Shown: positions 286-51,726 of the stretch, piece by piece
Layout: the number at the start of each line of letters is the position of its first letter
Position numbering within the stretch: the first letter of the stretch is position 1
DNA from: a virus
Length of the DNA stretch: 64,000 nt
Strand: one strand, 5' to 3'
Virus record (IMG/VR): IMGVR_UViG_3300036939_000082
Span: 1 to 64,000 of that record
Notes under the pieces: generated by a model
What the model was told of the DNA's origin: nothing
Database searches by the model: none
What the model saw: the letters and a program-made list of their open reading frames with translations, nothing else
Made by a program: the position numbers and the translations under genes

Positions 286-287
286 AA

Positions 288-33476: not shown

Positions 33477-34103
33477 TCAATCTGGGTTTTGATACTCGAC
33501 ACAAATATTGCAACTTGGTAGCTTGCTTTGCAACCACGCTACATCCGTATTTTTGAGCTTATTGTCTTCAAGAAATAAGTGTTTCAAAACAGTCAAAGAT
33601 GCTAGTGGTTCAATGTTACTAATTTGATTTTGATTGAGACTAAGTACGTTTAAATTAGTCAAGGAAGCTAGCGGCTCAATGTCGATGATTTTATTGGCTC
33701 CAAGCCACAACTTCGTTATAGTCTTCAAAGAAGCTAGCGGTTTAAGATCGCTAATTTGATTACCTCCAATGCCAAGCCAAATCAAATTACTCAAGGATGT
33801 TAACGGCTTAAGATCGCTAATTTGGTTGTTTCCTAAAAACAGGTATCTCAACTTAGTCAAAGATGTTAGCGGTTCAAGATCGCTGATTTGATTGGCTCCA
33901 AGACCAAGCAAATCTAGGTCAGTCAAAAATGCTAGCGGTTTAAGATCGTCGATCTTATTATTCACAATGTAGACGGTCTTCAGATTAACTAAAGATTTTA
34001 GCGGTTCAAGATCGCTAACTTGTCTGCTTGAAATGTCAATTTCTGTCAAGGTATTCAAATCACTAAATTGATCCAAAATCTTTTGAGTGTGCTTAGCTGT
34101 CAT
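33477..34103 (-). CDS. Stand-alone internalin-type leucine-rich repeat protein
   Basis: About seven 22-aa LxxLxLxxNQISDLxPL repeats. Confidence 0.9.
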   Translation of the reverse strand: MTAKHTQKILDQFSDLNTLTEIDISSRQVSDLEPLKSLVNLKTVYIVNNKIDDLKPLAFLTDLDLLGLGANQISDLEPLTSLTKLRYLFLGNNQISDLKPLTSLSNLIWLGIGGNQISDLKPLASLKTITKLWLGANKIIDIEPLASLTNLNVLSLNQNQISNIEPLASLTVLKHLFLEDNKLKNTDVAWLQSKLPSCNICVEYQNPD

Positions 34104-34565: not shown

Positions 34566-34925
34566 TTAACTTTGCTCATTTTGTTTTTCTAAACCAACAT
34601 CAACGATCGCCAGTCGATTTAAAAAAGACTGGCGATTTTCTATTACAGATTTCCCGGTTTTTGTAATTTGATAATATTTCCGTCGTACCCCTTCTAATTC
34701 ATCGCCCCATCTAGGAGTTATCCAACCTTTTTTTTCAAATTCTCTAAGAGTTGGATACAAAGATACTGGATTGTATTTTATTGTATTATTTGTCGCATTA
34801 CTGATAATACGAGCTATCTCTAAACCATACAAGGCTTGACCGTACAGGCTCCGAAGGATAGCTTCTTCTTTGGTTGTTATATCAGAAATTTTACTATTAG
34901 GCATACTACACAGTATATATAACAA
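34566..34925 (-). CDS. PadR-family transcription regulator
   Basis: LYGLEI ... SLYPTL..FEKKGWI ... RRKYY.IT.TG. Confidence 0.85.
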   Translation of the reverse strand: MLYILCSMPNSKISDITTKEEAILRSLYGQALYGLEIARIISNATNNTIKYNPVSLYPTLREFEKKGWITPRWGDELEGVRRKYYQITKTGKSVIENRQSFLNRLAIVDVGLEKQNEQS

Positions 34926-36796: not shown

Positions 36797-38188
36797 CTAC
36801 CAGAGAATTGGCTCCTCCTCCTCGTATTTTTCGACAATTACGGCTTTCGCAGGTTCAACTGCGGAGGCTTTTTCAATTTCAGCAATATTAGCAGCCAAGA
36901 TTTCTTCTGCCTTGGTCGGTCTGCCAAATCTTTTATTGAGGAGCGATCGCGCCCTTTCTCTCGCCGCCAAACTTTCTGGGGTCGGTGCATACGGGTCTGC
37001 CGCTTCCTCTTCCTCCGTCGCTGGATCTAAATCTGTACCCGTCGTCGGTTCGAGTTCCGGAAGTGAAGTCTCAACGCAAGCGATCGCGTAGGTCGGTAAA
37101 TTGTTGGCGATCGCCCGTTCCTTCGGTACTCCCAGCTCAACCTGTCGCGTCGCATCTTCGATCGCCCGCTCCAATCCCAATTTCACAGCATTCGCCACCG
37201 CCGCCACGACTGGCAGTCTCCGCAACTGCCCCGCTGCATTTTTGGCCGCCTCTGTTGTCGTCGCGCCGACTTTGTTAATGCAATCCTGGGCGATCGCCTC
37301 AGCTACTACCTGTTCCGGCACTCCCCGCAGCCTGAAGCCCGGGGGAACCAAGCGACTGCCCAATTCCTCACCGGAAATAAACTCTTCCCACAATAGGGCC
37401 ACACTAGCTTCTGGAACTTTCGCCTTAGACTCGCGCATGACCCAGTTGGCATATCCCTCGGGGGAATCGATGTCTACCCGCTGGTAGCAGTATTCCAAAA
37501 GTCTCTCAAAAAATAATTGTCGCTCAACCGGACTCGACCGCACGGAACACCGATCTTTTTCCAAAAATTCATTTTTTTTGAGAAGTTCGGCAACCACCTT
37601 TGCTTCCAGCAGACTGTCTTCAAGCAACCTCTTCTCTTCGTTCTCTTTTTCTATTTCTAAAAATTTATCAATAGTTCCGCCCGCTTCTCCGGGAGAGATT
37701 TCTTGAAAAACTTTTTTTGAAGATGTATCTTGATATGATTTGCGCTCAGTCGCGAGATCGATAGGATCATTTTCGGGTGATCGATTTGACGGTTTTGCGC
37801 AAATCGAGAGCGGCGCACCTTTCAGCAATTCAGCCAGCTTTTCGTAGCTGACTGCGTAGTATTTACATTGGTCAAAATAATTAGCCCTCAGTTGGCGGAC
37901 GACAATCAAGCCCAGCTTCTCAAGTCGAGCAAATATGCGGCGGAGTTTGTGGGCGCTCAGCCAGGGGAAGTTTCCCAGCCAGTCTACCTGCTTGCCGTGA
38001 GACTTGTTTAGTTTGCGCGGGTTGGTGCAGAGGATCGGGTTGCGAATCATTTTTATGCCGTCGGGAGCGATCGTCCCGCTCATCGCTGGGTTCTCGACGC
38101 ACCACTGAAGTTTGTTGAAGATTACTGCTTCCTCAAGTCCGATAGCGGCCGCTAGGTCTGGGCTGAAAAATCCTAATTCTTGAGACAT
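36797..38188 (-). CDS. Replication initiator / replisome organiser (N-terminal winged helix)
   Basis: AAAIGLEEAVIF.KL.W ... W...FPWLS...LRR....LEKLGLI ... D..KYY.V.YE.L pattern of phage/plasmid Rep proteins. Confidence 0.7.
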   Translation of the reverse strand: MSQELGFFSPDLAAAIGLEEAVIFNKLQWCVENPAMSGTIAPDGIKMIRNPILCTNPRKLNKSHGKQVDWLGNFPWLSAHKLRRIFARLEKLGLIVVRQLRANYFDQCKYYAVSYEKLAELLKGAPLSICAKPSNRSPENDPIDLATERKSYQDTSSKKVFQEISPGEAGGTIDKFLEIEKENEEKRLLEDSLLEAKVVAELLKKNEFLEKDRCSVRSSPVERQLFFERLLEYCYQRVDIDSPEGYANWVMRESKAKVPEASVALLWEEFISGEELGSRLVPPGFRLRGVPEQVVAEAIAQDCINKVGATTTEAAKNAAGQLRRLPVVAAVANAVKLGLERAIEDATRQVELGVPKERAIANNLPTYAIACVETSLPELEPTTGTDLDPATEEEEAADPYAPTPESLAARERARSLLNKRFGRPTKAEEILAANIAEIEKASAVEPAKAVIVEKYEEEEPILW

Positions 38189-38296
38189 GGGGATTACCTA
38201 CAAGCTGGGTTTGCTTGGTTGGGCGCGATCGGTGCCACTTGTAGGTAGATTCTTAGATTTAGCTTGACATTTGAAGAAATGTGCTACAATCTTAAT

Positions 38297-38392
38297 TGAG
38301 ATTACCTACTCGTTCCTACAAGTGGTGTTCGTCGCACCCAAACAACTTTTGCAAGAAGCCCCGCTATTCGACTAGCGGGGCTTCTTGTTTTT
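38297..38392 (+). ncRNA. Putative antisense (countertranscript) RNA to the rep leader
   Basis: TTGACA and extended -10 TGTGCTACAAT (38280-38290), then a 15-bp-stem terminator at 38352-38392, antisense to the rep 5' UTR. Confidence 0.6.
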
Positions 38393-38467
38393 GATAGTAA
38401 CACAGGTTTGCCGGATAGCCCAAAAATTTGCAGGGGGCGGGGGCAATCGGGCAAAACCTTAAATCTG

Positions 38468-38953
38468 TCATAACATATCTTTTGAGTAACTGAAATTGTG
38501 AAATTTTAGCAATTCAGGTGAATCAAAATTTATATCAGTCAATTCTGGTATTTCTAAGATAGGGAATATTGACCGAAGATATAGAACTGATTGAACGTAT
38601 AAATTTTCATCAGTCCAAAATGCTTTATTGTGAGCTACGTTATGGAATCCTGCGTTTTGTATCTTTGCAACGTGAGCTACGTTATGGAGTCCCGCGTTTT
38701 GTATGACTGCAAATGGTTGACCTTCAAACCACGCAGTTGCCAATTGCCAATATTTTATACTATCTTCTTGGCGATAAAGTGCTTTTATTTCTATCTTTTC
38801 ATTATTTTTAATGAAACCTGTGTGATTTATGTAGTTTGATGTATGTGCAAATTCGTGTATGTGACACACAAAATCTTTTAACTTAAAACTTGTTGATTGA
38901 GGAGTTAATCGATAAAGTTCGGCAATATTCATGATTTTAAGAGTGTTTGCCAT
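38468..38953 (-). CDS. Hypothetical protein with a 42-bp internal tandem duplication
   Basis: IQNAGLHNVAHVAK-IQNAGFHNVAH; flanked by 25-bp identical repeats at 38389 and 38980. Confidence 0.6.
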   Translation of the reverse strand: MANTLKIMNIAELYRLTPQSTSFKLKDFVCHIHEFAHTSNYINHTGFIKNNEKIEIKALYRQEDSIKYWQLATAWFEGQPFAVIQNAGLHNVAHVAKIQNAGFHNVAHNKAFWTDENLYVQSVLYLRSIFPILEIPELTDINFDSPELLKFHNFSYSKDML

Positions 38954-39107
38954 TTCTAAATGGGATTTGGTCTGCGTTGTTTTGATAGTAACACAGGTTT
39001 GCCGATCGCCCCTAAGATTCCGCGACGACGGACGATCGCCTTTTACGATCGCCTTTTTAGGACAAAACCCGGCGATCGGTTGATCGCCGGGTTTTGCTAT
39101 GGTTTTC

Positions 39108-39326
39108 CTAATCTGATTTTTTGTTTTTTGGAGTACAGTATTCCTCAACCCATTGCTCGATCTGCTGCTGCGCTTCACGCCGACCACCGGCTAGCTTTTC
39201 AAATTGGGCGATCGTTCCGACTTCCAGAAAAACCCAATACTGCTGTCGCTTCTTTTTTGGCGGTACTTTGGGACGACCGGCTCCTTCGCGCTTACCACCT
39301 CGACTCATCTCTTTTAATTTTGTCAT
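39108..39326 (-). CDS. Small DNA-binding protein (RGGKREGAGRP motif)
   Basis: AT-hook-like motif plus RHH-like segment. Confidence 0.6.
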   Translation of the reverse strand: MTKLKEMSRGGKREGAGRPKVPPKKKRQQYWVFLEVGTIAQFEKLAGGRREAQQQIEQWVEEYCTPKNKKSD

Positions 39327-39683
39327 TTATTTTTCTTAAAACTATTGACAGTGCTTTTTGATTATGGCATAGTTTATTTAACTGATACAAAGTACGTCTA
39401 ATGTTTCATTTGATTTTCCAGCAATACAGTTAAGTTTTGGAGCGCTAGTTTAAAAATGAGCCAGAAACAGTATTTCAAAGATACTAACGTTCGAGATACT
39501 TGTTCTGCATTAAGTATTGCCGAAGTTGAATCGTTTGTAGAAGGTCAAGTTATTGATGGGATGTTGACTGTCAAGGGTCAACGAATTGATGTTGACTTTG
39601 TTGAAATAGAAAAAAAGAAGCGGATCGAGAACTAGATAGGTGGATTATTAGCGAGTATGGCTAATTGCTGATTCACTATTTTT

Positions 39684-40406
39684 TTGAATGTCTTAAAAAC
39701 ACAAATACGAACAAAAATAATGAACTCATCTAAATTTACCCGTCCTTCTTTGGCTGAATATTCTCAAGGCTATTATCAGGCAGCCCCAGTCGAGTCAATC
39801 TGCAATAATTCGTACAAATTGATTGAGCAGTGGGAAATCCCTGTTTTAGAATCTGGGGAAATCCTTGTATACGGGGTGCGTCTCGTTCCCTCTCAAAAAG
39901 CTAAAATTAAAGTCTATTTTGGCTCAAGATCTAAGCGAGCAGTTGTTTGGTCTGAAGACCAACCATATAAAATGATGGGCGTTAGCTACGATTGCTATGG
40001 ACTTAAATTCAAAGAACAAGGGGATACTGTTTCGGATGAAACTATTGAAAGATACCTTGTTAATAATACAAGTCACGGCGTGTTGTACTTATCTTTTACT
40101 GGCGTTTCAATAAATTGCACTGACGAAAACTGGAAATTGCATCTTTCTAAGCCAGAGAAATATCTGAGCTGGACAGGTTCGGAACGTTTTTGTTCATCGG
40201 AAACCAATCAAATTTTTCAAAAAATAGCAAAACAAGTAGGCTGCACGGTTCCCAGAAGAGTTTTTGTACAATGCAACTGGCAATTGGAAGCTAACAACAA
40301 ACAAAACATTACGCCACGAAAAACTTCTTATCTAAAAATTTGCAGAGATTTGTCAATAGTTGAGTACAAATCTGCTGACGATGTTATGGTTTCTATCCAT
40401 TTTTGA
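39684..40406 (+). CDS. Hypothetical protein
   Basis: 240-aa ORF. Confidence 0.55.
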   Translation: MNVLKTQIRTKIMNSSKFTRPSLAEYSQGYYQAAPVESICNNSYKLIEQWEIPVLESGEILVYGVRLVPSQKAKIKVYFGSRSKRAVVWSEDQPYKMMGVSYDCYGLKFKEQGDTVSDETIERYLVNNTSHGVLYLSFTGVSINCTDENWKLHLSKPEKYLSWTGSERFCSSETNQIFQKIAKQVGCTVPRRVFVQCNWQLEANNKQNITPRKTSYLKICRDLSIVEYKSADDVMVSIHF

Positions 40407-40516
40407 GGATTTGGTGAAAACAAAATTTAAATATTACTAATTTTCAAAATCCAAGAGCCAGCAATTAATGCCCGATCGCCCACAGTCTCAAATTTCACCT
40501 AATTGAACGTGACCCA

Positions 40517-40954
40517 TTGAACGCAAACAACTTAAACCCTATGCCAGTAAAAGGATTTCGACAACTCCGCGTTCCGACGCGCACTTTTGAAATAGAGTTC
40601 AAACACCGTCCGCCGGATGACGCAACGGGCGATCGGGAAGTGTTAATTAAGACCGAGCAAATACAAGTTCCGGATGTTGGTAATCGTGAATGGGAGAAAC
40701 GGTGGGCAATGATGACCGTATGGAATACTTTTTCCAATCCGGAAGCGAAAGAACTTGGAATTAACCAGGCTTTCATCTTTTCTAAGGATTTTCGGGAATT
40801 GGTTTTTCGGATTGAACTCAATCCTTTCACGGACGAAGAAGCACACAAGTTGGATGTGCCGGCGCAGCAAGAATACGATCAATGGCTGGCGGCAGTGCGG
40901 AAACAGTTTAAGAAGCGCTATGGCGTCGAACTCGACGATTGGATGGGTACTTGA
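40517..40954 (+). CDS. Hypothetical phage protein
   Basis: 145-aa GC-richer ORF. Confidence 0.6.
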   Translation: MNANNLNPMPVKGFRQLRVPTRTFEIEFKHRPPDDATGDREVLIKTEQIQVPDVGNREWEKRWAMMTVWNTFSNPEAKELGINQAFIFSKDFRELVFRIELNPFTDEEAHKLDVPAQQEYDQWLAAVRKQFKKRYGVELDDWMGT

Positions 40955-40986
40955 TGTTGCGGGCGATCGTCCGCTGCATTGCTGAC

Positions 40987-41388
40987 CAAAAAACTGGGTA
41001 CAAGCCCGTCCTTCTAGAACGGCTTTAGTTAAGAGTTATGAATAACCAAAGATATGCTTTGTCAGACTGCTACAGTTAGGGATGTTGCAGCAGCGCAAGT
41101 AGTTCTAATTAGAGGACTTGCAGCCGTGGGACACACGGTGAAGATGCTTGGGGAGGGTAAATTCATTGGAATCCCTACAAACCAAGAAGCTTAGTTTGGT
41201 ATTGTCAACTAGCCTATTATTTCCATTAAAAGATCAAACAGCAAGCACTTGTGTGAAAAAGCTCACAACCCAGTATGGTGTAATTAATTGCAGTCGTAGG
41301 GCATACGGTAAAGAAGCTTTTGGAGGGTTAACTCAGTAGAGTCCCTATGAAGAAAGAATCCCCACGCCTTTAGGCTGGGGAGTGTCAA
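40987..41388 (+). mobile_element. Non-autonomous IS200/IS605 derivative (402 bp) with tnpB 3' remnant and duplicated right-end scaffold
   Basis: Left end CAAAAAACTGGGTACAAGCCCGTCCTTCTAGAACGGCTTT after TGAC; remnant peptide RDVAAAQVVLIRGLAAVGHTVK; right end AGAATCCCCACGCCTTTAGGCTGGGGAGTGTCAA. Confidence 0.85.
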
Positions 41389-41618
41389 GCAATCGAATAC
41401 GGAGGTACTGCGAGCCCGGGTTCTTTTAGTTTGTTCGTTCTTGGGTTGGGGCGATCGGTGCTACAATATTAACTGGCAGACAAGCGACAAGCCAACCGAA
41501 AGCAAAACCCGCAGATTGAGAGAGACTGCGGGTTTTGTTTTTCTTGAGGGGCGATTGTTGGGTTTTGGCTTTTACAAAAGAATCGATTTTATTTTTGTGG
41601 ATTCAATCGACCTTTTTG

Positions 41619-42161
41619 CTAGCGATCGCCTAGAAAATCCTCAAATATTGCACCCCGTTTAATCAGATATTGCTTCATCGATTTAGAAATGACGGAGTTT
41701 GAGTTGAATCGGGCTTTCTCAACATTAGTCTGACTTAAGTCAGCACCGCTCAGGTCAGCACCGCTCAAGTCAGCACCGCTCAGGTCAGCACCGCTCAGGT
41801 CAGCACCGCTCAAGTCAGCACCGCTCAGGTCAGCACCGCTCAGGTTAGCACCGCTCAGGTCGGCATCACTCAGATCGACATCACTCAAGTTTCGATCTGT
41901 GATTCCCTGGGTAACAAGTTCTCGTACTAGATGCCACTTGTTGTTGATTTCGTTGTTATTGTCATCCTTTGAGTGTTCACTCAAGATTTGAACACTTGCA
42001 ATAGGAAAACCGCTTATTTCTTCTAATTCTCCTGACTTGATGCGAGATACAAGGCGTTTGACATATTCTTGAGAACCTTCTACCGTTAATACGGTACTGT
42101 GTGCAGGATTCTTATTTTGGTTGTCAACAATTCGATCGCCCGGAACTAATTTCTTTTTCAT
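41619..42161 (-). CDS. Pentapeptide repeat protein
   Basis: (SGADL)n encoded by near-perfect 15-bp tandem repeats at about 41735-41870. Confidence 0.9.
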   Translation of the reverse strand: MKKKLVPGDRIVDNQNKNPAHSTVLTVEGSQEYVKRLVSRIKSGELEEISGFPIASVQILSEHSKDDNNNEINNKWHLVRELVTQGITDRNLSDVDLSDADLSGANLSGADLSGADLSGADLSGADLSGADLSGADLSGADLSQTNVEKARFNSNSVISKSMKQYLIKRGAIFEDFLGDR

Positions 42162-42204
42162 CTTTGTTTAAAGTGTGGTTTTGTTTTTTTTGAGGGACGA
42201 TCGG

Positions 42205-42320
42205 CTATTCCCACCAAATTTCTTTAACAGGACGGCTCCAATCTGTTTCGGGGTGCATATTTTCTGGGGTAACTCCCTCCATTAGCTGTTCTAGTGTTGA
42301 AGGCTTTTTACGATTGTCAT
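42205..42320 (-). other. MazE C-terminal (toxin-binding) peptide coding segment; short ORF or frameshifted remnant
   Basis: Frame gives KPSTLEQLMEGVTPENMHPETDWSRPVKEIWWE*. ATG 42282 gives 25 aa; ATG 42320 is one base out of frame. Confidence 0.6.
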
Positions 42321-42378
42321 TTGTTTTTGCTTTATAGGATTACCAAGTTATTATATACTCTAATACATCGATTAGAGG

Positions 42379-42684
42379 TTGTTCTTTATGAAACGAGACG
42401 AAATTAAGCTCAGTTTTATAGAGACAGACAACGAGTCAATTAGCGAGACTTGTAGGTGCGAATTTTGCGATCGCCCTATCCGATTTTACCGATATAAAGG
42501 ATGGCTCTTTAACAACTATGTCGTTCAAAATACAGATGGTAGCGTTCACCGTCGCTGCGATCGCCCGGTAGCATGGTCGCCGTCTCGCAGGGATATTCCA
42601 GATGGCTGGGAGTATTGGCGACCCGACAGCGATGACGATCGCGCGTGTTACATCATAAAAAAGTACACTCGTTTTGAAAAGTGA
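42379..42684 (+). CDS. Hypothetical protein (CxCxxC ... HxxC)
   Basis: ORF; probable ATG at 42388. Confidence 0.5.
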   Translation: MFFMKRDEIKLSFIETDNESISETCRCEFCDRPIRFYRYKGWLFNNYVVQNTDGSVHRRCDRPVAWSPSRRDIPDGWEYWRPDSDDDRACYIIKKYTRFEK

Positions 42685-42794
42685 TCCACTATCAAAAAAT
42701 AGACCCGCATCTTTGTTTAAGAGCAATTGGAGCGGGTTTTAATTTTGGGGCGATAGCTGTGCTATTATGTCATGATACATACTGAGGTAACATC

Positions 42795-43058
42795 GTGGAA
42801 ACAAGGCAACAGCGGTACGAGCAAACTAAAAAAGGTAAACAAACGCGACAAACGGCAATTGCCGCTTATAGAACTAGGCGGGTCAAATGGGAAGTTTGGT
42901 TAACTCCGGAAATATCAAAGGCCCTAGAAGCTTCAATCCCTGACGGGGAAAGCAAATCAGAGTTTTTGAGAAAAATTTTACACAAGCACCTTGACAGGGT
43001 AGTTTTCATGATACATACTGTAGGGGAGCCTGATGAAATAAAAACAAAAAATGACTAA
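42795..43058 (+). CDS. Small putative DNA-binding protein
   Basis: RHH-like C-terminus (SKSEFLRKIL); flanked by a repeated 15-mer. Confidence 0.5.
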   Translation: METRQQRYEQTKKGKQTRQTAIAAYRTRRVKWEVWLTPEISKALEASIPDGESKSEFLRKILHKHLDRVVFMIHTVGEPDEIKTKND

Positions 43059-43353
43059 CCCAGAAATGTCGGAATTAATTGCTCAATCTGAAGCTGAAAT
43101 TGCTGCGCTCAAAGCTAACCTCGATCGAATGCAGGAGCGTCACGATTTACTCAATGCTGTCGAAGCGGTGCGCGAATCTATTTTGTTGCACCTTGACCGG
43201 GCGATCGAAATGTTAAATAAAGTCGCCCCGACTCAAGTTGCAACGTTCAAAAGTGAAATTGACGCAAAGTTTGAAGCGGCAGAATGGCGATCGGAATGTA
43301 ATGCTAGCAAAATTGGAGAGATAGTATTCGTCGAAACCAAGATGAAGAGTTAG
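43051..43353 (+). CDS. Coiled-coil hypothetical protein
   Basis: 100-aa ORF. Confidence 0.55.
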   Translation: MTNPEMSELIAQSEAEIAALKANLDRMQERHDLLNAVEAVRESILLHLDRAIEMLNKVAPTQVATFKSEIDAKFEAAEWRSECNASKIGEIVFVETKMKS

Positions 43354-44270: not shown

Positions 44271-45299
44271 ATGAACACTCAACTGACACTTGCACTCGAC
44301 ATATTCCCCGACGCCAGTCTAACTTTAGAGCAAAAAATCGAATGGAGTTTAAAAGTTTTTGACAGTTTAGACGAAGAGAAAGAGTACCGACTTGCTTTTA
44401 GTGGAGGTAAAGACAGCCACGTATTACTCGGAATATACTTAAAGTGGCGCGAGTCTCGTCAAAAAAACTTGAAGTTAAATGTGGTCTTTTCTGATACGTT
44501 GCTAGAAAGTCAGCAGCTTTACAGTCTGATCGAATTGACAGAGAAGACTTGCAAGGCAAAAGAAATCAACTTTATTCGAGTTAAACCCTTGTTAGAACAC
44601 AATTTTTGGGTAATTCTGTTTGGACTGGGTTATCCTGTACCGAATCACAGGGTTAGATGGTGTACAAGCCGTTTAAAAATCGATCCAATGGAAAAGACCC
44701 CGGGCATCGGCATTACGGGTTCTCATTTTGGAGAGAGTACAAAAAGAGACAACAGACTAAAAAAATGCGGTTCCAACGAATGCGGTATCAATGAATTATC
44801 TAATACTGTTGAACCTTTAGCAATCTGGCGAAACTGCGATATCTGGGATTGGATAATACTGTACTCTGACAGTATTATCTATAACGGAGTAAGCAGTCAA
44901 TTATTGTCCACATACAACATAGCAGAAGATAAAAATGGGAGCTTGAGAATGGGTTGTTTTATGTGTCCCGTGATAGCTCAGAGTACAACAGTTAAATTGG
45001 TAAACGATGGCATCGTGTCTCCAATTACCCTCAAAATTCGGGAGATTCTTGAAATTTTGCGAAAAAAACCCAGGATTTTATCGCAAAGGACTAAAAAGAA
45101 TGGGGCAATTTTAGTGGACGCTAGAATCGAAGTTTGGGAAAAAATGAAACCTTTTTTTCCTGTACTTTTAGAAAACAACTGGATTCAGCCCGAGGTAATA
45201 CACTTGGTTGAAGAAATGTTGTCTAAGAGAACTTACCCCCCAACCTACAAACAAGATTGGATAAAAGAACAGGAACAACTTCTCAAAAGTTTAGACTAG
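44271..45299 (+). CDS. PAPS-reductase-family (DndC-like) PP-loop protein
   Basis: FSGGKDS, RWCTSRLKI.P, RMGCFMCP. Confidence 0.85.
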   Translation: MNTQLTLALDIFPDASLTLEQKIEWSLKVFDSLDEEKEYRLAFSGGKDSHVLLGIYLKWRESRQKNLKLNVVFSDTLLESQQLYSLIELTEKTCKAKEINFIRVKPLLEHNFWVILFGLGYPVPNHRVRWCTSRLKIDPMEKTPGIGITGSHFGESTKRDNRLKKCGSNECGINELSNTVEPLAIWRNCDIWDWIILYSDSIIYNGVSSQLLSTYNIAEDKNGSLRMGCFMCPVIAQSTTVKLVNDGIVSPITLKIREILEILRKKPRILSQRTKKNGAILVDARIEVWEKMKPFFPVLLENNWIQPEVIHLVEEMLSKRTYPPTYKQDWIKEQEQLLKSLD

Positions 45300-45389: not shown

Positions 45390-45875
45390 CTATTGCATGA
45401 TACAATTTGGCAGCGCTTTCTGAAGCGAGCTTTTTTCTTCTCGACTAATTTCATTTCCGCCAATATAAAGCTCGGCTAAGTTGTGCAGCGAGCTTAACGG
45501 CTCAAGCGTTGTAATTTTATTGCCTGACAAGTTTAACCTTGTCAGATTGGTTAATTTCGCTAGGGGTGCAACATCGACAATTTGGTTGTCGTCTAGATAG
45601 AGCCACGTCAGATCCAGCAGCGATCCCAGTGAGCTGAGGTTGACTATTTTATTTTGTCTCAAGTCTAGGTGTATCAACTTGAACAATGGTTCTAGCGGAC
45701 TGATGTCGCTGATTTTGTTTCCCTTCAACCAGAGATACATCAGGTGCGTCAATTCACTGAAAGGCTGCAAGTCCTCAATTCCTTTGTCCTCGACAGCTAC
45801 ATCCGTCAGCCTAGTGATTTCGCTGATTTTAGGTAGCTGTTCTGCCGTGTACTGGTCGGGGTATATGTACGTCAT
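45390..45875 (-). CDS. Second stand-alone LRR protein
   Basis: About five 22-aa LRRs (L.L.GNKISDISPL). Confidence 0.9.
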   Translation of the reverse strand: MTYIYPDQYTAEQLPKISEITRLTDVAVEDKGIEDLQPFSELTHLMYLWLKGNKISDISPLEPLFKLIHLDLRQNKIVNLSSLGSLLDLTWLYLDDNQIVDVAPLAKLTNLTRLNLSGNKITTLEPLSSLHNLAELYIGGNEISREEKSSLQKALPNCIMQ

Positions 45876-46075
45876 TAGGTGTATGAGTAAAAATCTGTTT
45901 TGTTTTTGATGGTATCACAAGTTGTGGCACTACGCAAACGAAAAGCCTCTCGGTTAAGTACCAAAGGACTTTTTCGATATTTAATTGGTAAACTAAAAAT
46001 TTACACAAATGCTTTAAGATGTAAATAGCGTGCTACTAGGCTGCTTTTTCCATCACTGACAAGGACTAAACCAAT

Positions 46076-46495
46076 ATGACTTTTAAAGAATCTCGTTTTT
46101 TGCTTCGCTTTGACGAATTTGCGCCAAAAGCTTTCTTGATCGCCTTAGCAAAATTTGAAGGAATTTTTTCCTCTGACTTGATACATCAAGTGAATCAAGT
46201 AGGCGATGCTTTAATCGGTAATGAATTAGAACAAACATCTCAACTTATTTGTATTGCCCAAAAAGATGTTATTTTTTACGAGGTTTTCAAACAGGCTTAC
46301 GAGGACTTGCTGGAAGTTGACAGTGAAAATGCAAGTTACTTTGATAAATCAGATATATGCTTGCGACGGACTGGTGATGATATTGAGAGATTTTTAACTA
46401 CTCCCCTGAGTGATGCAAATCCTCAGACTGCGGTCAAAAGACTTTTTGGAGGAGCAGATAATTTAGTTGAACGGGTTTATCAACTGAGATTTTGA
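46076..46495 (+). CDS. Hypothetical protein
   Basis: 139-aa ORF between duplicated promoter segments (45901-45947 and 46591-46637). Confidence 0.55.
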   Translation: MTFKESRFLLRFDEFAPKAFLIALAKFEGIFSSDLIHQVNQVGDALIGNELEQTSQLICIAQKDVIFYEVFKQAYEDLLEVDSENASYFDKSDICLRRTGDDIERFLTTPLSDANPQTAVKRLFGGADNLVERVYQLRF

Positions 46496-46734
46496 TTTGA
46501 TCTGTTATCGTAGTTAGTACCCAGCTAAGTCATTAGACGTTTTGGAAAAGGTTCACTTTTTTGTTCGGGTCTACAGAGGTGAGACTGCTTTGTTTTTGAT
46601 GGTGTCACAAGTTTTAACGGGACGCAAACAACAAGCCCTTCAGTATTTAAATGAAAGGCTTGTTGTTTGCGTTGAAAGCTACGAAGCATCAATCTCTATC
46701 CAACCAGGATTTGGTGTGTAAATTTCACAACTCT

Positions 46735-47097
46735 TTAAGTGTGTTGTGTGTCCCAAAAATTAGCTAATGTCTGAACCTCTTTACGCCATTCTGCCGTCAA
46801 ACTGTACATTCGACGGGGGCGACCGCGCCCTTCTGTCTTTTTCCAGTAGGGTTTTGTTATCCCCTCTTTCTCAAGAAAATTTAATGCGACATAAAGTACC
46901 GTATCAGAAACCTGATAAACAGGAAATTTTTCTTTCAGTTTGTCCATCAGTTCTGTTCCGTAGGAATCTCCCTCTAATAAAACCGAAAGGATGTAACATA
47001 CTGCCTCTTCTGGGTTTAGGTAAATAGGGGGTGGGAATTGAAAATATTGATAAATTTTTGCGAGGCTGAGCCGTGAATTCGTTGGGTTGTGGATCAT
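46735..47097 (-). CDS. pex: Pex-like PadR-family regulator (circadian period extender homologue)
   Basis: IYQYF..PPP.YL..E.AVCYIL.VLL.G.SYGTEL...L....P.Y..SDTVLY.AL.FLE......YWKK.EGRGRPRRMY.....W....LA..W matches cyanobacterial Pex as recalled. Confidence 0.85.
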   Translation of the reverse strand: MIHNPTNSRLSLAKIYQYFQFPPPIYLNPEEAVCYILSVLLEGDSYGTELMDKLKEKFPVYQVSDTVLYVALNFLEKEGITKPYWKKTEGRGRPRRMYSLTAEWRKEVQTLANFWDTQHT

Positions 47098-47288
47098 TGG
47101 TTTTGTTGATTCTAATACTTTTATTAGTTTAGCACGATAAAACGTTTAGCAGTTTATTTCGATCGACAGGTTTTTGTTTTTTACGGTTAGAGATTACGCA
47201 GTTTGTTTGCCTAAAATGTGGCAGTGAGGCGGATATATAGAATTTTGCGATGTTATTGTTTTGATTTATAACAAACCTTGATTTAGTA

Positions 47289-47652: not shown

Positions 47653-48234
47653 TCAATTTTTCAAGAACTGTTCAGCCGCCAGCCAAGCTTTTTCGGGAGT
47701 TGGATGCGGTGCGCTCAATGTCCGATCGCCCGCGCCCACACCAAAATCGTAAGGAAAAGATCCGGGTGCTCGAACGCGGAAGCTCCAACCTTCCGATCGC
47801 CCACGTTCCACTAATTCGACTCGATACTGAACCCGCTGCACCGTGTATATCTGGCGATTGCCGTTCCTAACGTCTAATCCGCCGTAGCAATCGGGACGGT
47901 AGGTTTCCACGATTTTTGCAACCAAGCTTCTGTGGCAGCGCACGGGCGATCTCTCCCAACAGCACAAGGTTACATCGGTTTCTGGATCGAGATTGTCCAG
48001 CCAGTGCTTGATAGCATTCCAGCGCGATCGGCAAGTTTTTCGATAAGCTTCCACATAGTCTTCCCAATCTGCTTTAGACTTCGGGCTGTTTTTGTACTTT
48101 TGTACCGCTCTCCAATTAGGGACAAACAGTTCGATTGTCTTGACATCGGAGTGGGACTTAGGTGGATACTTGGCGATTGACTGGAGTTCGCCAAACTGAA
48201 ATTCCCATTTAGAGAATGCTGTGAAGTAAATCAT
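47653..48234 (-). CDS. DUF488-family protein
   Basis: F.P.W ... Y...YR ... VTLCCWE....CHRSLVA. Confidence 0.8.
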   Translation of the reverse strand: MIYFTAFSKWEFQFGELQSIAKYPPKSHSDVKTIELFVPNWRAVQKYKNSPKSKADWEDYVEAYRKTCRSRWNAIKHWLDNLDPETDVTLCCWERSPVRCHRSLVAKIVETYRPDCYGGLDVRNGNRQIYTVQRVQYRVELVERGRSEGWSFRVRAPGSFPYDFGVGAGDRTLSAPHPTPEKAWLAAEQFLKN

Positions 48235-48236
48235 TT

Positions 48237-49976
48237 TTAACTGTTTTTAACGCCTAGTTTTGCCGAAATTTCTCGTTGTAGAACTCTTCTAAATGCTATT
48301 TCAATATTGCAAATTCGAGTTTTGACCATATTTAATAGAGGAAGCGAGGTGATTCTAATCTCTGCGGTGTTATTGACGATCGCCACTAGGCGACCGTGCT
48401 GTCTCAATAATTCCTGCGTTCCGTAGGGTCTAACCTCGTTTAAAGTTTTATTCCACAAACGATGTAACTCGATCGCGCTTAACGGCTTGTTTTCTTCGTT
48501 AGCTTCTTGATACTTGAGTCGAGCCCACTTGGTTGAATGACCCAGTTTTTTTGCTAAATATCGCCAACTACCCAGAGAAATTTCCGATCGCCACTCTTTG
48601 CTTGTTTCGGTAAATTGATGGTATACCCAAGCAGTTGGGTACTTAAGGCGTTGGCAGTTAGCCAATAAATCATCAATTATTGCAGTGTGTGTTGGATTGG
48701 GAGTTAAATCGATCTCTTTGTCTTTGTCGTTTGCATTCAATTCTGGTTTTGGTTTTTCTCCTCCGCCACTACCCACTTTGAACGTGTTTTCAGTCAGACA
48801 GTTTGGACAAAGACATTTTAAATCGGGAATCTCGTGCGACAGCGGCTTGAAGATGTGAGAACACGATTTGCAGACAACGTGCAGGAACCGTTTAGCTTCT
48901 ATTCCAAGGCTTTGAGGTTCCAGCGACCATTCTCTTTCTTCATCTGGCAGTCCTAACGATTCCCAACTTTTGCCGTGATCGATGATTGTGGCAAAAGTCT
49001 TGCCGTCTGCCAATCTCAGTCCGCGACCGACCATCTGGAGCCACAGGCTCAAGCTTCTTGTGGGCCGCACGATCTGAACAACTTCAATACTGGGAAGATC
49101 GAATCCTTCTGAGATAATTCCGCAGTTGCAAAGGACGATCGTCTCTCCTGAGTTAAACCTGTACAGAACATCCCGCCGATCGCCCGTTTCCGTTTCTCCG
49201 TCTAAATGCTCCGCTGGAATCCCAGCAGCTTGAAAAGCTCCTGCATATTCGCGACTTCTAGCAACGTCTACAGCAAAAACCACAGTCCGGTTCCCGCCTG
49301 CCCGTCGCTTCCACTCGGCTACCACATCGTTTGGCTCTATTTGTTCGGCAACCGCTTCGCTCAATCTTTCACTATTGAAGTCTCCACCGCTGCTTTTGAT
49401 TTTGTTGGTATTGATTGTCTTGCCAGCTTGGTACAGTTTGTACTGAGACAGATATCCGCGATCGATCAGTTCCTTGGTGGACGGCCCGCAGATTAGTGAT
49501 TGAAATAGGTATTTAAACCCTTGACCGTCATTTCTACACGGAGTTGCAGTGAATCCCAAGATTTTGGCATTTGGATAGTTTTGCAAAACTTTTGTGTAGC
49601 TCCGACTGCAAGCGTGGTGTGCTTCATCAATAATTACTAGGTCTGCTGGCGGTAAATATTGGCGGCGGGCGAGCGACTGGATTGATGCAATTTGTAAATT
49701 GTAGAGAGGGTTTGGCTTGTAGCCGTTTTTGATGATTCCTGCGGAAATTCCAGAAATAGCCTCCATTTTTTCTTGGGCTTGCAAAAGCAATTCTTCTCTG
49801 TGAGCAATAACTAAGACTCGCAGTCCACTATTCAAAAACGGTGCGCTAATCGTTCCGAACGTAGGTGTTTTTCCACCGCCAGTAGCGAGTTGCACCATAA
49901 TGGAGCGAACGTCGTTTTGCCACAACTCCAATACCTTGAATTCTATTTCTTCTTGGTAATCTCTTAACTTGTACAT
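48237..49976 (-). CDS. Superfamily 2 DEAD/H helicase with zinc ribbon
   Basis: LRDYQ, ATGGGKT, DEAHH, TATP, EGFDLP, QMVGRGLR, CxxC...CPNC. Confidence 0.92.
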   Translation of the reverse strand: MYKLRDYQEEIEFKVLELWQNDVRSIMVQLATGGGKTPTFGTISAPFLNSGLRVLVIAHREELLLQAQEKMEAISGISAGIIKNGYKPNPLYNLQIASIQSLARRQYLPPADLVIIDEAHHACSRSYTKVLQNYPNAKILGFTATPCRNDGQGFKYLFQSLICGPSTKELIDRGYLSQYKLYQAGKTINTNKIKSSGGDFNSERLSEAVAEQIEPNDVVAEWKRRAGGNRTVVFAVDVARSREYAGAFQAAGIPAEHLDGETETGDRRDVLYRFNSGETIVLCNCGIISEGFDLPSIEVVQIVRPTRSLSLWLQMVGRGLRLADGKTFATIIDHGKSWESLGLPDEEREWSLEPQSLGIEAKRFLHVVCKSCSHIFKPLSHEIPDLKCLCPNCLTENTFKVGSGGGEKPKPELNANDKDKEIDLTPNPTHTAIIDDLLANCQRLKYPTAWVYHQFTETSKEWRSEISLGSWRYLAKKLGHSTKWARLKYQEANEENKPLSAIELHRLWNKTLNEVRPYGTQELLRQHGRLVAIVNNTAEIRITSLPLLNMVKTRICNIEIAFRRVLQREISAKLGVKNS

Positions 49977-50160
49977 TGTTCTTGTTTTGTGTTGGTTGAG
50001 GACTTAATACTAGAGATAAGATCGACTTTCCTCAAGGATTGCCAATATCTTGTTTAGCTTGTCAATAGAGCATCCAAGTCCAAAACGCATAGTGATTGAT
50101 TTTGGTTTTCACTGCTTTTGTTCACAAAAATTGATTTGGGCTTTATGGTGGGGAAAATTG

Positions 50161-51726
50161 TTAGTGTTTTTGACCAAATTTTAAGTCTGCCCACGACAAT
50201 TGCTTGTCTATATTCTCTTTTGGCTTGCTAATTAACTCCTTAATTTTTTCCATGCCATCAACTCCATTGTTAACCGCTGCACTCAACTCGTGTTTTTCCT
50301 GTGCTCGCGATATCGCATCCTCCCGAGATTCTCCATTCCGCTCAAATGCTTGCTCCAAAGGCTTATAAACGTTTTTGCGATGGGGTGATAAACGTTGCTT
50401 ATCCGTCAGACTTAGCAAGCTTGCCATCAGTTCTAGGTGATTTTTGTCGTCACCACAAACCTCTTTAAGCGCTTCCCACTCTTCATTGCCAAGGATAGTG
50501 CGCTCGTCAATATGTCGAACATCTTTAAAAACTTCACCCGTCGCTTCTTCGTAAATTCGTGGCAAACTGTCGTCAAATTCATGCTTCTGTTCTAGCCAAA
50601 TCCTGCGGATTTCACTGAGTTCTTCTGGGGTAATTAAGGTGATGTCGCGCATTTCTAGGGGTGCAGTTTTGCGGATGTGAGTCTGTGTTTCTAGTACCCG
50701 TCTGAGCCAGTGTTCGCGCCAATGTCGTAGATATGGTCCTGGTATAAGTTCGACAGACGTGGTGCCGTCGTCCATCGTCTTGTCGAATAGATCAACCCTG
50801 CCGTTCATCCGTCGATAATCGCGCCGATCACGATCGTCCGGGACTTGTAGTTCGTTCCGAATATCAAGCAACGGTTGCATCCATTCTTTTTGACTGTCGT
50901 TAATAATCATTGCTTCCATCGATTTGTCTTTGCTAACCATCGTGCAAGTCCAACAACCAAACCGAGAACTACCACAGCTAGGGGTAGAAGTATCAACTAC
51001 TAGCGGGCATTCATTATCTGCCGTTGCGCCACGATACATGACAAACAGATCTTTGTTGCTCCCGCCCCACGGATTGTCAAATTGCATCAAATACATCCAT
51101 ACCTCGTCCGTGCGCCAATCTTCAATCGGAAGGTAGATAAAAGATCCAGGATTTGCTGGGCTTGAGTTTAAATGTTTTGCTACCCTGCTTTCCCTATGCT
51201 TCGCCATATTGGTGGCACGGGTAGAACTTTCAGCACTACGAGTGCCAAGTGCCAAAACAACTTGACCGCAGGTGGCGATCGACTGACGTATAAAGACCGT
51301 GGCGGGATTGATTTTTAGACGATCTGTACACCATCGAAAATTACGCCGGGGTGCTGCATACCCTTTCCCAATCAAACAAACCCAAAAAGTGTCCTGAATA
51401 GCTGGTGTAGTGACTTGAGTTACGATCGGCATTTCTTGTTCCAATGCTGCTCGCTCCATCTGCTTCAACGAACTGCGAACTTGGGCGGACACAATTGGAT
51501 TCTCCACCAGCGTGTCATTTGTGAGTACGTAGATTTTGTGGATGCGTTGATCGATCGGTAGTTGGCGGACGGCGTTCCAAATTAACTGCAAAACCGTGGT
51601 ACTATCTTTGCCTCCACTCCAACCGATGACAATTGGATTGCCCTCTAGATATATTTGCTGAATTTCTTTGGTCAGCAGTTCGATTTCGGTCATTAGACCG
51701 GGAACGGTACGGAGAGTATCTGTCAT
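50161..51726 (-). CDS. dndC: DNA phosphorothioation sulfurtransferase DndC
   Basis: WSGGKDST, RWCTDRLKI, DNECPLVVDTSTPSCGSSRFGCWTCT, full DndC C-terminus; 521 aa. Confidence 0.9.
   Translation of the reverse strand: MTDTLRTVPGLMTEIELLTKEIQQIYLEGNPIVIGWSGGKDSTTVLQLIWNAVRQLPIDQRIHKIYVLTNDTLVENPIVSAQVRSSLKQMERAALEQEMPIVTQVTTPAIQDTFWVCLIGKGYAAPRRNFRWCTDRLKINPATVFIRQSIATCGQVVLALGTRSAESSTRATNMAKHRESRVAKHLNSSPANPGSFIYLPIEDWRTDEVWMYLMQFDNPWGGSNKDLFVMYRGATADNECPLVVDTSTPSCGSSRFGCWTCTMVSKDKSMEAMIINDSQKEWMQPLLDIRNELQVPDDRDRRDYRRMNGRVDLFDKTMDDGTTSVELIPGPYLRHWREHWLRRVLETQTHIRKTAPLEMRDITLITPEELSEIRRIWLEQKHEFDDSLPRIYEEATGEVFKDVRHIDERTILGNEEWEALKEVCGDDKNHLELMASLLSLTDKQRLSPHRKNVYKPLEQAFERNGESREDAISRAQEKHELSAAVNNGVDGMEKIKELISKPKENIDKQLSWADLKFGQKH

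What the first reader, a model, noticed from the sequence alone, without database searches (positions are those of the whole stretch)
46735..47097. Phage-encoded Pex: a possible handle on the host circadian clock
Seen: near full-length match to the Pex signature (PPP.YL, SYGTEL, SDTVLY, YWKK.EGRGRPRRMY), flanked by phage cargo rather than its chromosomal context. A second generic PadR is at 34566. Known: Pex is a dark-induced PadR repressor that binds upstream of kaiA and lengthens the circadian period in Synechococcus. Inference: an auxiliary regulatory gene that lets the phage shift clock period or phase and so the timing of photosynthesis, division or induction. I do not recall pex among described cyanophage host-derived genes.
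Basis: partly seen in the sequence, partly recalled or inferred. Interest (0 to 1): 0.82.

Follow-up and report, generated by a model that had tools for sequence, protein, structure and literature searches.

The report
Cyanophage-encoded Pex clock-regulator homologue
A ~190-kb tailed virus of soil-crust cyanobacteria carries its own conserved copy of Pex, the small DNA-binding repressor that slows the cyanobacterial day-night clock, so the virus may interfere with its host's timekeeping, although that effect is untested.

Summary
ORF 46735-47097 (-) encodes a 120-aa PadR winged-helix protein with all the quoted motifs. It is a true Pex-family member. Its best solved relatives are the three Pex crystal entries (E 1e-33 to 5e-37, against 3e-9 for the next PadR). 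The model superposes on them at TM 0.82-0.89. It lies inside the Pex clade in trees.

The context is viral. The contig is a 188,942-bp IMG/VR virus record with terminase, baseplate, sheath, tail fibre, endolysin and a giant tail gene.

The gene is not a chimeric artefact. A monophyletic phage-type Pex clade of 11 clusters sits in the same DndC-helicase-DUF488...pex-LRR neighbourhood in at least five independent assemblies. dN/dS is 0.09-0.24.

The DNA-reading helix and wing tip match host Pex. The N-terminus, C-terminus and some other positions are clade-specific.

Clock manipulation remains an inference. I found no shared operator with Microcoleus kaiA promoters and no RNA data, and a phage-internal regulatory role is a serious rival.

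No paper describing a phage pex turned up. Plasmid-borne pex copies are already annotated. This scan has already noted phage or mobile-element Pex homologues on several other genomes.

The parts
46735..47097 (-). pex homologue CDS (120 aa): PadR-type winged helix with the Pex-specific N-terminal helix and PPPxYL motif
   Evidence: AF2 model pLDDT 90.6. Foldseek top hits are Pex 2DQL/2E1N at TM 0.82-0.89. Trees.
47126..47157 (-). Candidate own promoter and autoregulatory operator. Inverted repeat ATAAAC-N8-GTTTTAT (47137-47157) is followed by an extended -10-like TGCTAAACT (47126-47134), about 28 nt before the ATG.
   Evidence: The block is conserved upstream of pex in four diverged phage contigs while the surrounding sequence is not. 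The exact repeat occurs once in the 189-kb genome, against 0 in shuffles. Its function is inferred.
46622..46672 (-). 21-nt-arm hairpin about 60 nt downstream of the pex stop; terminator-like; lies inside a duplicated 75-nt segment
   Evidence: Inverted repeat I1, 95% complementary. The duplication is shown.
45390..45875 (-). 161-aa leucine-rich-repeat protein, the conserved downstream neighbour of pex in related phages (context)
   Evidence: Pfam LRR_4 1.7e-25. It is 74.5% identical to the gene directly after pex in L001 and L004.
46076..46495 (+). 139-aa ORF of no known family, on the opposite strand between pex and the LRR gene, bracketed by a ~75-nt direct repeat (about 45895-45975 and 46585-46670); absent at this place in relatives (context)
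47653..51726 (-). Upstream same-strand genes: DndC-like PAPS reductase (50161-51726), ResIII/Helicase_C helicase (48237-49976) and DUF488 (47653-48234). They are separated from pex by a 555-bp gap. This is the conserved neighbourhood of phage pex (context).
   Evidence: Synteny.
34566..34925 (-). Second, generic PadR regulator (not Pex-type), also present in relative L093 (context)
   Evidence: PF03551 3.2e-17. It falls outside the Pex family in the tree. A PadR lies about 7 kb from pex in L093.

Best explanation
Shown: the gene encodes an intact, selectively maintained member of the Pex family. It is carried as a conserved gene by a lineage of ~190-kb contractile-tailed phages of biocrust filamentous cyanobacteria; Microcoleus-like hosts are likely but unproven. 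Inferred: the gene is transcribed from its own promoter during infection and probably represses itself through the inverted repeat over that promoter. Its recognition helix (SDTVLY..A..FLE), helix 2 (SYGTEL) and wing tip (GRGRPRRM) match those of host Pex. It therefore most likely occupies the same operators as host Pex, of which the only known one lies upstream of kaiA. It would do so free of the host's light/dark control of Pex level. That would impose a night-like input on the KaiABC clock: less KaiA, slower or delayed KaiC phosphorylation, and altered clock output. Host physiology would then be held in a state that suits phage replication across diel or wetting cycles.
For: Identity:
- Best PDB sequence hits are Pex entries at 4.7e-37 to 1.5e-33, against 2.8e-9 for the next PadR.
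- The model has pLDDT 90.6 and superposes on Pex crystals at TM 0.82-0.89, rmsd 1.7-2.0 A and 52-53% identity. Other PadRs reach TMq 0.65 or less.
- The gene falls inside the Pex family, which is split from generic PadRs by a 96* branch.

Phage gene, not an artefact:
- G000 is a virus record with CheckV completeness 98%.
- I found terminase, baseplate wedge, sheath domain, tail spike/fibre and endolysin.
- The same neighbourhood occurs in L001/L002, L004, L093/L094 and the P0012 contig, which come from different samples.
- The phage-type clade of 11 clusters is monophyletic at 99* and 98/96*.

Maintained function:
- Pairwise dN/dS is 0.09-0.24 at dS 0.5-2.4.

Same DNA-reading surface:
- Columns 45-50, 64-69, 71, 74-76 and 90-97 are identical in 11 phage and 109 host sequences.

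Target present in the likely host:
- kaiA and a host-type pex are present in all five Microcoleaceae genomes checked (three Microcoleus, one Tychonema, one Capilliphycus).

No regulon seen in the phage:
- The conserved inverted repeat occurs only upstream of pex itself.

Background:
- Pex is a cyanobacteria-only clock input factor and kaiA repressor (PMC5520375; PMC12000584).
Against: - No binding, expression or phenotype data exist.
- The phage inverted repeat is absent from kaiA and pex upstream regions of five Microcoleaceae genomes, and it is not enriched in those genomes. No motif is shared between host kaiA promoters and the phage.
- Pex is a weak lever in the model organism: a knockout shifts the period by about 1 h and the clock stays robust. 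Some clock-bearing cyanobacteria lack Pex altogether.
- The phage clade has lost the Lys at position 73 of the recognition helix, which is K in 83% of hosts. This particular phage also has R62Q, at a site that is R in 98% of hosts. DNA specificity or affinity may therefore differ.
- A second, very divergent Pex-like gene in another phage-like contig is also attached to a PAPS-reductase/DpdA DNA-modification operon. That hints at a phage-internal role.
- No integrase or resolvase was found. A long-lasting lysogenic effect on the clock is therefore not supported, and KaiA protein made before infection would persist during a lytic cycle (general knowledge).
Confidence: 0.4

Rival explanations
1. 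Phage-internal regulator. The captured Pex was re-used as an ordinary phage transcription factor. It represses itself and times phage genes, for example the adjacent DNA-modification/replication module or the downstream LRR gene. It has no designed effect on the host clock.
For: - There is a conserved promoter-overlapping inverted repeat upstream of pex in four phages, the typical layout of PadR autoregulation.
- pex always lies at the end of the DndC-helicase-DUF488 block and before the LRR gene.
- A 45%-identical Pex-like gene overlaps the stop of DpdA, after a PAPS reductase and before a sigma-70 gene, in another phage-like contig.
- The clade-specific changes K73 loss, L31Q, I51M, G83P and V88T are compatible with a drifted specificity.
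- The phage has a second PadR as well.
Against: - The exact inverted repeat is found nowhere else in the 189-kb genome, and 1-mismatch hits are at the shuffle level. No phage regulon is visible.
- If the operator were free to co-evolve, the strict identity of the recognition helix and wing tip with all host Pex over deep divergence would not be expected.
- The gene between the DUF488 gene and pex differs from phage to phage, and pex has its own promoter block. It is therefore not simply the last cistron of the modification operon.
Confidence: 0.3
2. Interference with host Pex. The phage protein forms mixed dimers with host Pex, or competes with it at the operator with weaker repression. It would then cancel the host's dark signal and de-repress kaiA, rather than mimic it.
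For: - The clade-specific substitutions cluster in the N-terminal helix and extension and in the C-terminal helix (K11S, E13A, D14S, L114F, Y118Q, truncated tail). In small PadR proteins these are the dimer-forming parts (family knowledge).
- The DNA-reading parts are kept.
Against: The same substitutions could equally insulate the phage dimer from host Pex. Heterodimerisation was not tested (no complex job was run). Nothing in the sequence shows weaker repression.
Confidence: 0.1
3. Not a phage gene in the functional sense. The 189-kb element is a plasmid, phage-plasmid or integrated island, and pex is a plasmid-type accessory paralogue like those on Acaryochloris and Chroococcidiopsis plasmids.
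For: - Pex paralogues occur on eight cyanobacterial plasmids, one annotated 'circadian period extender' on the conjugative plasmid pREB3.
- IMG/VR classes the record as 'provirus'. The same protein sits on a 194,977-bp contig, about 6 kb longer.
- I did not identify a major capsid or portal gene myself.
Against: - Terminase large subunit, baseplate wedge, sheath domain, tail spike/fibres, endolysin and a 6,321-codon tail-gene-sized ORF are present.
- CheckV completeness is 98%.
- The two ends of the record lie about 3.2 kb apart, in the same order, in the related 188,553-bp virus record. The ends are therefore a permutation, not host junctions.
- No integrase or resolvase was found.
- The plasmid copies are only 42-56% identical.
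Confidence: 0.07
4. Decaying or neutral passenger gene, or an assembly chimera.
For: None beyond the window-specific R62Q and E55K changes.
Against: - The frame is intact and the start context is conserved.
- dN/dS is 0.09-0.24.
- The gene is conserved in position across at least five independent assemblies.
- The model is high-confidence.
Confidence: 0.02

Closest known systems
Pex (period extender) of Synechococcus elongatus PCC 7942 (PDB 2E1N, 2ZFW) and of Anabaena (PDB 2DQL)
   Same: - Same fold and length class, with 52-53% identity.
- It has the Pex-specific N-terminal helix and PPPxYL, and the same SYGTEL, SDTVLY and GRGRPRRM motifs.
- It falls in the Pex clade.
   Different: - It is encoded by a phage.
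- It belongs to a separate clade with a ~10-residue N-terminal extension, a shortened C-terminus, loss of K73, and L31Q, I51M, G83P, V88T, L114F and Y118Q.
- kaiA binding, dark induction and a period effect are unknown.
Chromosomal Pex of Microcoleus, Kamptonema and Tychonema (likely host group)
   Same: These are the closest cellular sequences, at 62-65% identity. An AU test does not reject a common clade (p 0.46). GC content and HIP1 density are similar.
   Different: The host proteins are 130 aa with a longer C-terminal tail and no N-terminal extension. The free tree puts the phage clade outside the main host clade on a 0.58 stem. The upstream regions share no motif.
Plasmid-borne pex paralogues, e.g. 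Acaryochloris marina MBIC11017 pREB3 WP_012167576.1 'circadian period extender', and Chroococcidiopsis and Kovacikia plasmids
   Same: These are Pex-family genes on mobile replicons, which shows that pex moves horizontally.
   Different: They are only 42-56% identical. They sit on conjugative or non-mobilizable plasmids, not in the phage neighbourhood, and they are not in the phage-type clade.
Phage-encoded homologues of host sensory regulators, e.g. VqmA-Phi of vibriophage VP882 (from my own knowledge, not checked here)
   Same: The idea is the same: a phage keeps a copy of a host signal-linked transcription factor and can act on host and/or phage promoters.
   Different: The family and the signal are different. 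That case is tied to a lysis-lysogeny switch, and no such switch or integrase was found here.
Classical cyanophage host-derived genes (psbA, hli, talC, nblA and the like; from my own knowledge)
   Same: It is a host-derived gene conserved in a phage lineage under purifying selection.
   Different: Those genes are metabolic or photosynthetic. This one is a transcription factor of the clock input pathway. It is seen in terrestrial biocrust phages and in none of the 50,697 INPHARED records.

Membership tests
Pex (cyanobacterial period-extender subfamily of PadR) | PadR-type winged-helix domain | tested here: met
   PF03551 2.8e-13, residues 36-108. The model shows H-H-H, a wing of two strands, then a C-terminal helix.
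Pex (cyanobacterial period-extender subfamily of PadR) | Pex-specific N-terminal helix and PPPxYL segment preceding the PadR core (generic PadRs align only from about residue 34) | tested here: met
   The alignment to Pex crystal sequences starts at residue 12. Family hits in the 1.84-billion library start at residues 8-14, while generic PadRs start at 34-36. F19, P22-P24, Y26 and L27 are conserved.
Pex (cyanobacterial period-extender subfamily of PadR) | Invariant motifs SYGTEL, (R)LSDTVLY and GRGRPRRM | tested here: met
   All are present. The exception is the R before LSDTVLY, which is Q62 in this phage, with L63V.
Pex (cyanobacterial period-extender subfamily of PadR) | Closer to characterised Pex than to any other PadR, in sequence, structure and tree | tested here: met
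   a gap of 28 orders of magnitude in E-value; TM 0.82-0.89 against 0.65 or less.
Pex (cyanobacterial period-extender subfamily of PadR) | Wing arginine needed for DNA binding (R106 in S. elongatus numbering; recalled from the structure paper, not re-read) | tested here: met
   With the offset of +13, this is R93 here. It is invariant in all 120 sequences compared. The residue number is from memory.
Pex (cyanobacterial period-extender subfamily of PadR) | Binds upstream of kaiA and represses it; lengthens the circadian period | not testable with these tools
   This needs EMSA and reporter assays. The motif searches were inconclusive. The papers giving the binding site are not held.
Pex (cyanobacterial period-extender subfamily of PadR) | Accumulates in darkness | not testable with these tools
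   No RNA run holding the sequence was listed.
Pex (cyanobacterial period-extender subfamily of PadR) | Homodimer | not tested
   No complex job was run; a pass would mostly reflect likeness to the solved Pex dimers.
Host-derived auxiliary gene of a phage | Lies inside a viral genome between viral genes, not at a host junction | tested here: met
   The record ends are contiguous in a relative.
Host-derived auxiliary gene of a phage | Conserved in related phages and under purifying selection | tested here: met
   Synteny in at least five assemblies. dN/dS 0.09-0.24. The gene is absent from the more distant 199,763-bp relative G007.
Host-derived auxiliary gene of a phage | Cellular origin traceable in a tree | tested here: inconclusive
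   The phage clade is nested in the cyanobacterial Pex family, but the donor lineage is unresolved (AU p 0.46 for a Microcoleus/Kamptonema sister).

The most novel reading that the evidence does not exclude
A lineage of large biocrust cyanophages encodes a working component of the cyanobacterial circadian input pathway. The phage uses it to repress host kaiA and so reset, slow or freeze the host clock during infection. This would be the first virus-encoded circadian-clock regulator. With the phage's own GAF-histidine kinase/receiver module, it may be part of a viral light/dark timing kit.
Probability: 0.33. Interest if true: 0.85.

Novelty: new variant of a known kind. Interest (0 to 1): 0.62.

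Why it matters
Cyanophage infections are known to follow the light-dark cycle. So far this has been put down to light and host energy supply, not to viral action on the clock itself. A virus that carries a clock-input repressor would give a direct genetic way to ask whether viruses manipulate circadian timekeeping. The test is easy: express a 120-aa protein in existing S. elongatus reporter strains and run a gel shift on PkaiA.

It would also widen the idea of phage auxiliary genes from metabolism to timekeeping. It would add a natural set of Pex variants with the same DNA-reading surface but altered termini, for studying how Pex is controlled.

If the protein proves to be only a phage-internal repressor, the finding is still a clean case of a host regulator family being domesticated by a phage lineage, but it is ordinary.

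Tried and rejected
1. Operator link. The phage-conserved inverted repeat ATAAAC-N8/9-GTTTTAT was absent, at up to 2 mismatches, from 600 nt upstream of kaiA and 400 nt upstream of pex in five Microcoleaceae genomes. The PadR consensus ATGT-N8-ACAT was absent too. In those genomes the exact pattern gave 4 hits against 8 for the reversed control. No 10-mer is shared between host kaiA and host pex upstream regions in more than 2 closely related genomes. Only chance-level 11-12-mers are shared between the conserved kaiA block and the phage.

2. The papers that give the Pex binding site and the original phenotype (PMC2168723, PMC107145) are not held. The known site could therefore not be scanned.

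3. Expression. No RNA holder was listed. The only run holding the stretch is a biocrust DNA metagenome that may be the source.

4. Host link. The terminase query in 79 genomes of the Microcoleus genus gave one distant hit (39% identity). No phage-type Pex is among the best 80 of 590 or more genome hits. All phage-type clusters come from unnamed metagenome contigs.

5. Lifestyle. No tyrosine integrase, resolvase or KaiC-type ATPase is in the record.

6. Wider viral survey. An alignment of divergent family members was too variable for the IMG/VR scan. P0137 alone found nothing. The first single-protein scan found nothing. Contexts of P0130, P0135, P0142 and P0182 were on contigs too short to read.

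7. Recent capture from Microcoleus. This is neither shown nor rejected.

8. CikA-like reading of the phage GAF-histidine kinase. NCBIfam gives only generic kinase matches.

9. No complex prediction was run (homodimer or mixed dimer with host Pex), because a pass would mainly reflect the solved Pex dimers.

Full report
OBSERVATION. The ORF list gives a single 120-codon frame at 46735..47097 on the minus strand with an ATG start. Pfam sees a PadR domain at residues 36-108 (2.8e-13). NCBIfam has no Pex model and gives only sub-threshold PadR matches. The second PadR at 34566-34925(-) is real and generic (PF03551 3.2e-17).

IS IT PEX? Against all PDB chains, the three best matches are the Pex entries: 2DQL at 4.7e-37, 2E1N at 1.2e-33 and 2ZFW at 1.5e-33. 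They align over residues 12-116. The next PadR reaches only 2.8e-9 and aligns from residue 35. An AlphaFold2 model built on 32 relatives has mean pLDDT 90.6, and its secondary structure is the Pex layout. Foldseek ranks 2DQL and 2E1N first, with TM 0.82-0.89, rmsd 1.7-2.0 A and 52-53% identity. Other PadRs stay at TMq 0.65 or below.

A full HMMER pass over 1.84 billion cluster representatives finds only 83 clusters at E<=1e-10. Family members match from residue 8-14, so they include the Pex-specific N-terminal segment. Generic PadRs match from residue 34-36. In a 148-row tree the Pex family is split from generic PadRs by a 96* branch of length 1.22, and the window's protein lies inside the family.

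IS THE CONTEXT VIRAL, AND IS THE JOIN REAL? The window is the first 64 kb of a single 188,942-bp contig with 43.4% GC and no tRNA. The genome tool describes it as a virus record, IMG/VR class 'provirus', CheckV completeness 98%. I found these phage functions:
- a large terminase (2004-4025; phrog_675 9.6e-24, Pfam GpA_ATPase)
- a baseplate wedge protein (6342-7517)
- a sheath-domain protein, tail spike and fibre proteins and an endolysin
- a 6,321-codon ORF at 134444-153409, which an earlier report of this scan reads as the tape measure
- a DarB-like antirestriction protein and a replication initiator

I did not identify the capsid or portal genes myself.

HIP1 (GCGATCGC) occurs 127 times against 1.6 expected. 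That density is like the Microcoleaceae loci I fetched, which marks a cyanobacterial host. The only sequencing run holding the stretch is a biocrust metagenome.

The two ends of the record map about 3.2 kb apart, in the same order, in the related 188,553-bp virus record. The ends are therefore a permutation point and not host junctions. No tyrosine integrase or resolvase was found. Two IS605-type transposase genes are present.

Chimerism is excluded by synteny. The order DUF5131 / DNA methylases / DndC-like PAPS reductase / helicase / DUF488 / variable small ORF / pex / LRR protein recurs in the following assemblies:
- L001 (JGI 3300035684, which is IMGVR_UViG_3300035684_000001)
- L002 (GCA_034691665.1, 181 kb)
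- L004 (JGI 3300049932)
- L093 and L094 (two ENA assemblies)
- the P0012 contig (Logan SRR20217183)

DISTRIBUTION. In the 5.8-billion-cluster search the window's protein is followed by a group at 65-74% identity (P0002-P0008) and by P0012, P0019 and P0028. All come from metagenomes and none is named beyond 'PadR family'. After these come the chromosomal Pex proteins of Microcoleus, Kamptonema and Tychonema at 62-65%.

The 11 phage-type sequences are monophyletic: 99* in the quick tree and 98/96* in the careful tree. The free tree places them outside the main host clade, on a 0.58 stem. An AU test does not reject a sister relation with Microcoleus/Kamptonema (p 0.46). The donor and the age of the capture are therefore open.

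A more distant relative of the phage lacks pex. It is 199,763 bp, CheckV 100% complete, with a helicase 60% identical. The gene was therefore gained within this phage group.

INPHARED holds no Pex-like gene in 50,697 phage records. IMG/VR holds one, the related 188.5-kb contig. Eight cyanobacterial plasmids carry Pex paralogues at 42-56% identity. One is annotated 'circadian period extender' on the conjugative plasmid pREB3.

A very divergent family member (P0137, 45% identity) sits in another phage-like contig. It overlaps the stop of a DpdA gene, lies after a PAPS reductase, and is followed by a sigma-70 gene.

This scan has already recorded phage or mobile-element Pex homologues on other genomes: e1-5806341, e1-5327883, e1-5943866, e1-5943859 and e1-5864075. 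I treated these as leads only.

SELECTION AND RESIDUES. Nei-Gojobori estimates among four phage pex genes give dN/dS of 0.09-0.24 at dS 0.5-2.4.

I compared columns between 11 phage and 109 host sequences. Helix 2 (SYGTEL), the recognition helix (S64, D65, T66, L68, Y69, A71, F74, L75, E76) and the wing tip (G90-M97) are the same in both groups.

The clade-specific differences are:
- an N-terminal extension of about ten residues
- changes in the first helix (K11S, E13A, D14S)
- L31Q and I51M
- loss of K73 in the recognition helix
- G83P and V88T at the base of the wing
- L114F and Y118Q
- a shorter C-terminus

The window's copy is an early branch of the phage clade. It keeps host-like IYQ(Y)F, but it alone has R62Q and E55K.

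REGULATORY ANATOMY. pex is separated from the upstream DUF488 gene by 555 bp. The ORF that fills this gap in relatives differs from phage to phage and has no counterpart here. The 80 nt before the ATG hold a block conserved in all four phages aligned. The block contains an inverted repeat, ATAAAC-N8-GTTTTAT, intact in three of the four aligned phages and only partly kept in L004. It also contains an extended -10-like TGCTAAAnT. The exact repeat is unique in the genome. I read this as the gene's own promoter with an autoregulatory operator. That is an inference from the usual PadR arrangement.

Downstream lies a 21-nt-arm hairpin. It is part of a ~75-nt segment present twice, bracketing an inserted 139-aa ORF on the other strand. 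In relatives the LRR gene follows pex directly.

LINK TO THE HOST CLOCK. All five Microcoleaceae genomes checked have kaiA and a host-type pex. Their kaiA upstream regions share a conserved AT-rich block. Neither the phage repeat nor the PadR consensus is in that block or upstream of host pex. The phage repeat is not enriched in those genomes. No significant shared words link the kaiA block to the phage. The papers that define the S. elongatus Pex site are not held. The central claim therefore stays untested.

MECHANISM. What is shown is an intact, conserved, selectively maintained Pex-family repressor in a phage lineage, with the host's DNA-reading residues.

The most likely use (0.4) is occupation of host Pex operators, above all kaiA, without the host's light/dark control. 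This would give the clock a night-like input. The background is that Pex is a cyanobacteria-only input factor and kaiA repressor, and that kaiA inactivation leaves only a damped rhythm (abstract of PMC7205874).

Against this reading:
- the Pex knockout effect in S. elongatus is small, about 1 h, and the clock stays robust
- no shared operator was found
- K73 is lost in the clade and R62Q is present in this phage
- Pex-like genes are tied to DNA-modification operons in two phage lineages

The main rival (0.3) is a domesticated phage-internal regulator. Interference with host Pex through mixed dimers (0.1), a plasmid-like element (0.07) and a decaying passenger gene (0.02) follow.

NOVELTY. Full-text searches found no paper describing a phage-encoded pex or any virus-encoded Kai-clock factor. 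The query pex + cyanophage + circadian gave 0 papers. 'Period extender' + phage gave one irrelevant paper. The family is known and plasmid copies are annotated. What is new is the phage setting and the distinct phage clade. I class it as a new variant of a known kind, with interest resting on a cheap, decisive experiment.

Noticed in passing
window 45895-45975 and 46585-46670, flanking ORF 46076-46495(+): A ~75-nt direct repeat that includes the pex terminator-like hairpin brackets a 139-aa ORF of no known family. The ORF is inserted, on the opposite strand, between pex and the LRR gene. Relatives have pex directly followed by the LRR gene. It looks like a cassette insertion with target or flank duplication.
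   Followed up: partly
window 45390-45875(-), 33477-34103(-); G000 64149-64862 and 182678-183118: The phage carries at least four paralogous small leucine-rich-repeat proteins. One is the conserved downstream partner of pex. Their function is unknown.
   Followed up: partly
whole contig G000: HIP1 (GCGATCGC) occurs 127 times against 1.6 expected. GGCC is strongly depleted (71 against 419 expected), which suggests avoidance of a GGCC-cutting host restriction enzyme.
   Followed up: partly
window 44271-45299(+) and 50161-51726(-): There are two separate DndC/PAPS-reductase-like genes within 7 kb, on opposite strands, on either side of pex.
   Followed up: no
G000 128664-131916 (L008 4664-7916): A GAF-HisKA-HATPase histidine kinase is followed by a 138-aa ORF and a 313-aa receiver-domain protein. 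This is a phage-borne two-component module, and NCBIfam gives only generic kinase matches. If it senses light or redox, it could belong with pex to a timing kit.
   Followed up: partly
L107 7911-11249 (JGI 3300081571 contig, 21.6 kb): In another phage-like contig, a 111-aa Pex-family protein (45% identical) starts at the stop of a DpdA gene. It lies after a PAPS reductase and before a sigma-70 factor. This is a second, independent phage association of Pex-like genes with DNA-modification genes.
   Followed up: partly
P0121 (364 aa): The best-scoring representative in the 1.84-billion library is a 364-aa protein with three separate Pex-like stretches. It may be a tandem triple-Pex fusion. I did not examine it.
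   Followed up: no
L061, L018, L033, L035: about 60-110 nt upstream of host pex: Microcoleus and Tychonema pex genes share a conserved GC-rich hairpin (GGAAGCGGCAC...CCGCTTTCC) in the leader. It could be a regulatory RNA structure or the terminator of the upstream gene.
   Followed up: no
G000 record ends (window 1-1280 and G000 187500-188942) against G006 37317-43220: IMG/VR labels the record 'provirus', and the same Pex protein is on a 194,977-bp contig. Yet the record's two ends lie about 3.2 kb apart in a related virus record. The label probably reflects trimming of a permuted genome, not a host junction.
   Followed up: partly
G000 167260-168501(+) and 177667-179241(-): Two IS200/IS605-type transposase (TnpB-like) genes lie inside the phage genome (phrog_506, 1e-96 to 4e-99).
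   Followed up: no
window 41619-42161(-): A 180-aa protein combines a TRADD-like N-terminal domain with pentapeptide repeats. A TRADD-like_N gene is also near pex in L001/L002.
   Followed up: no
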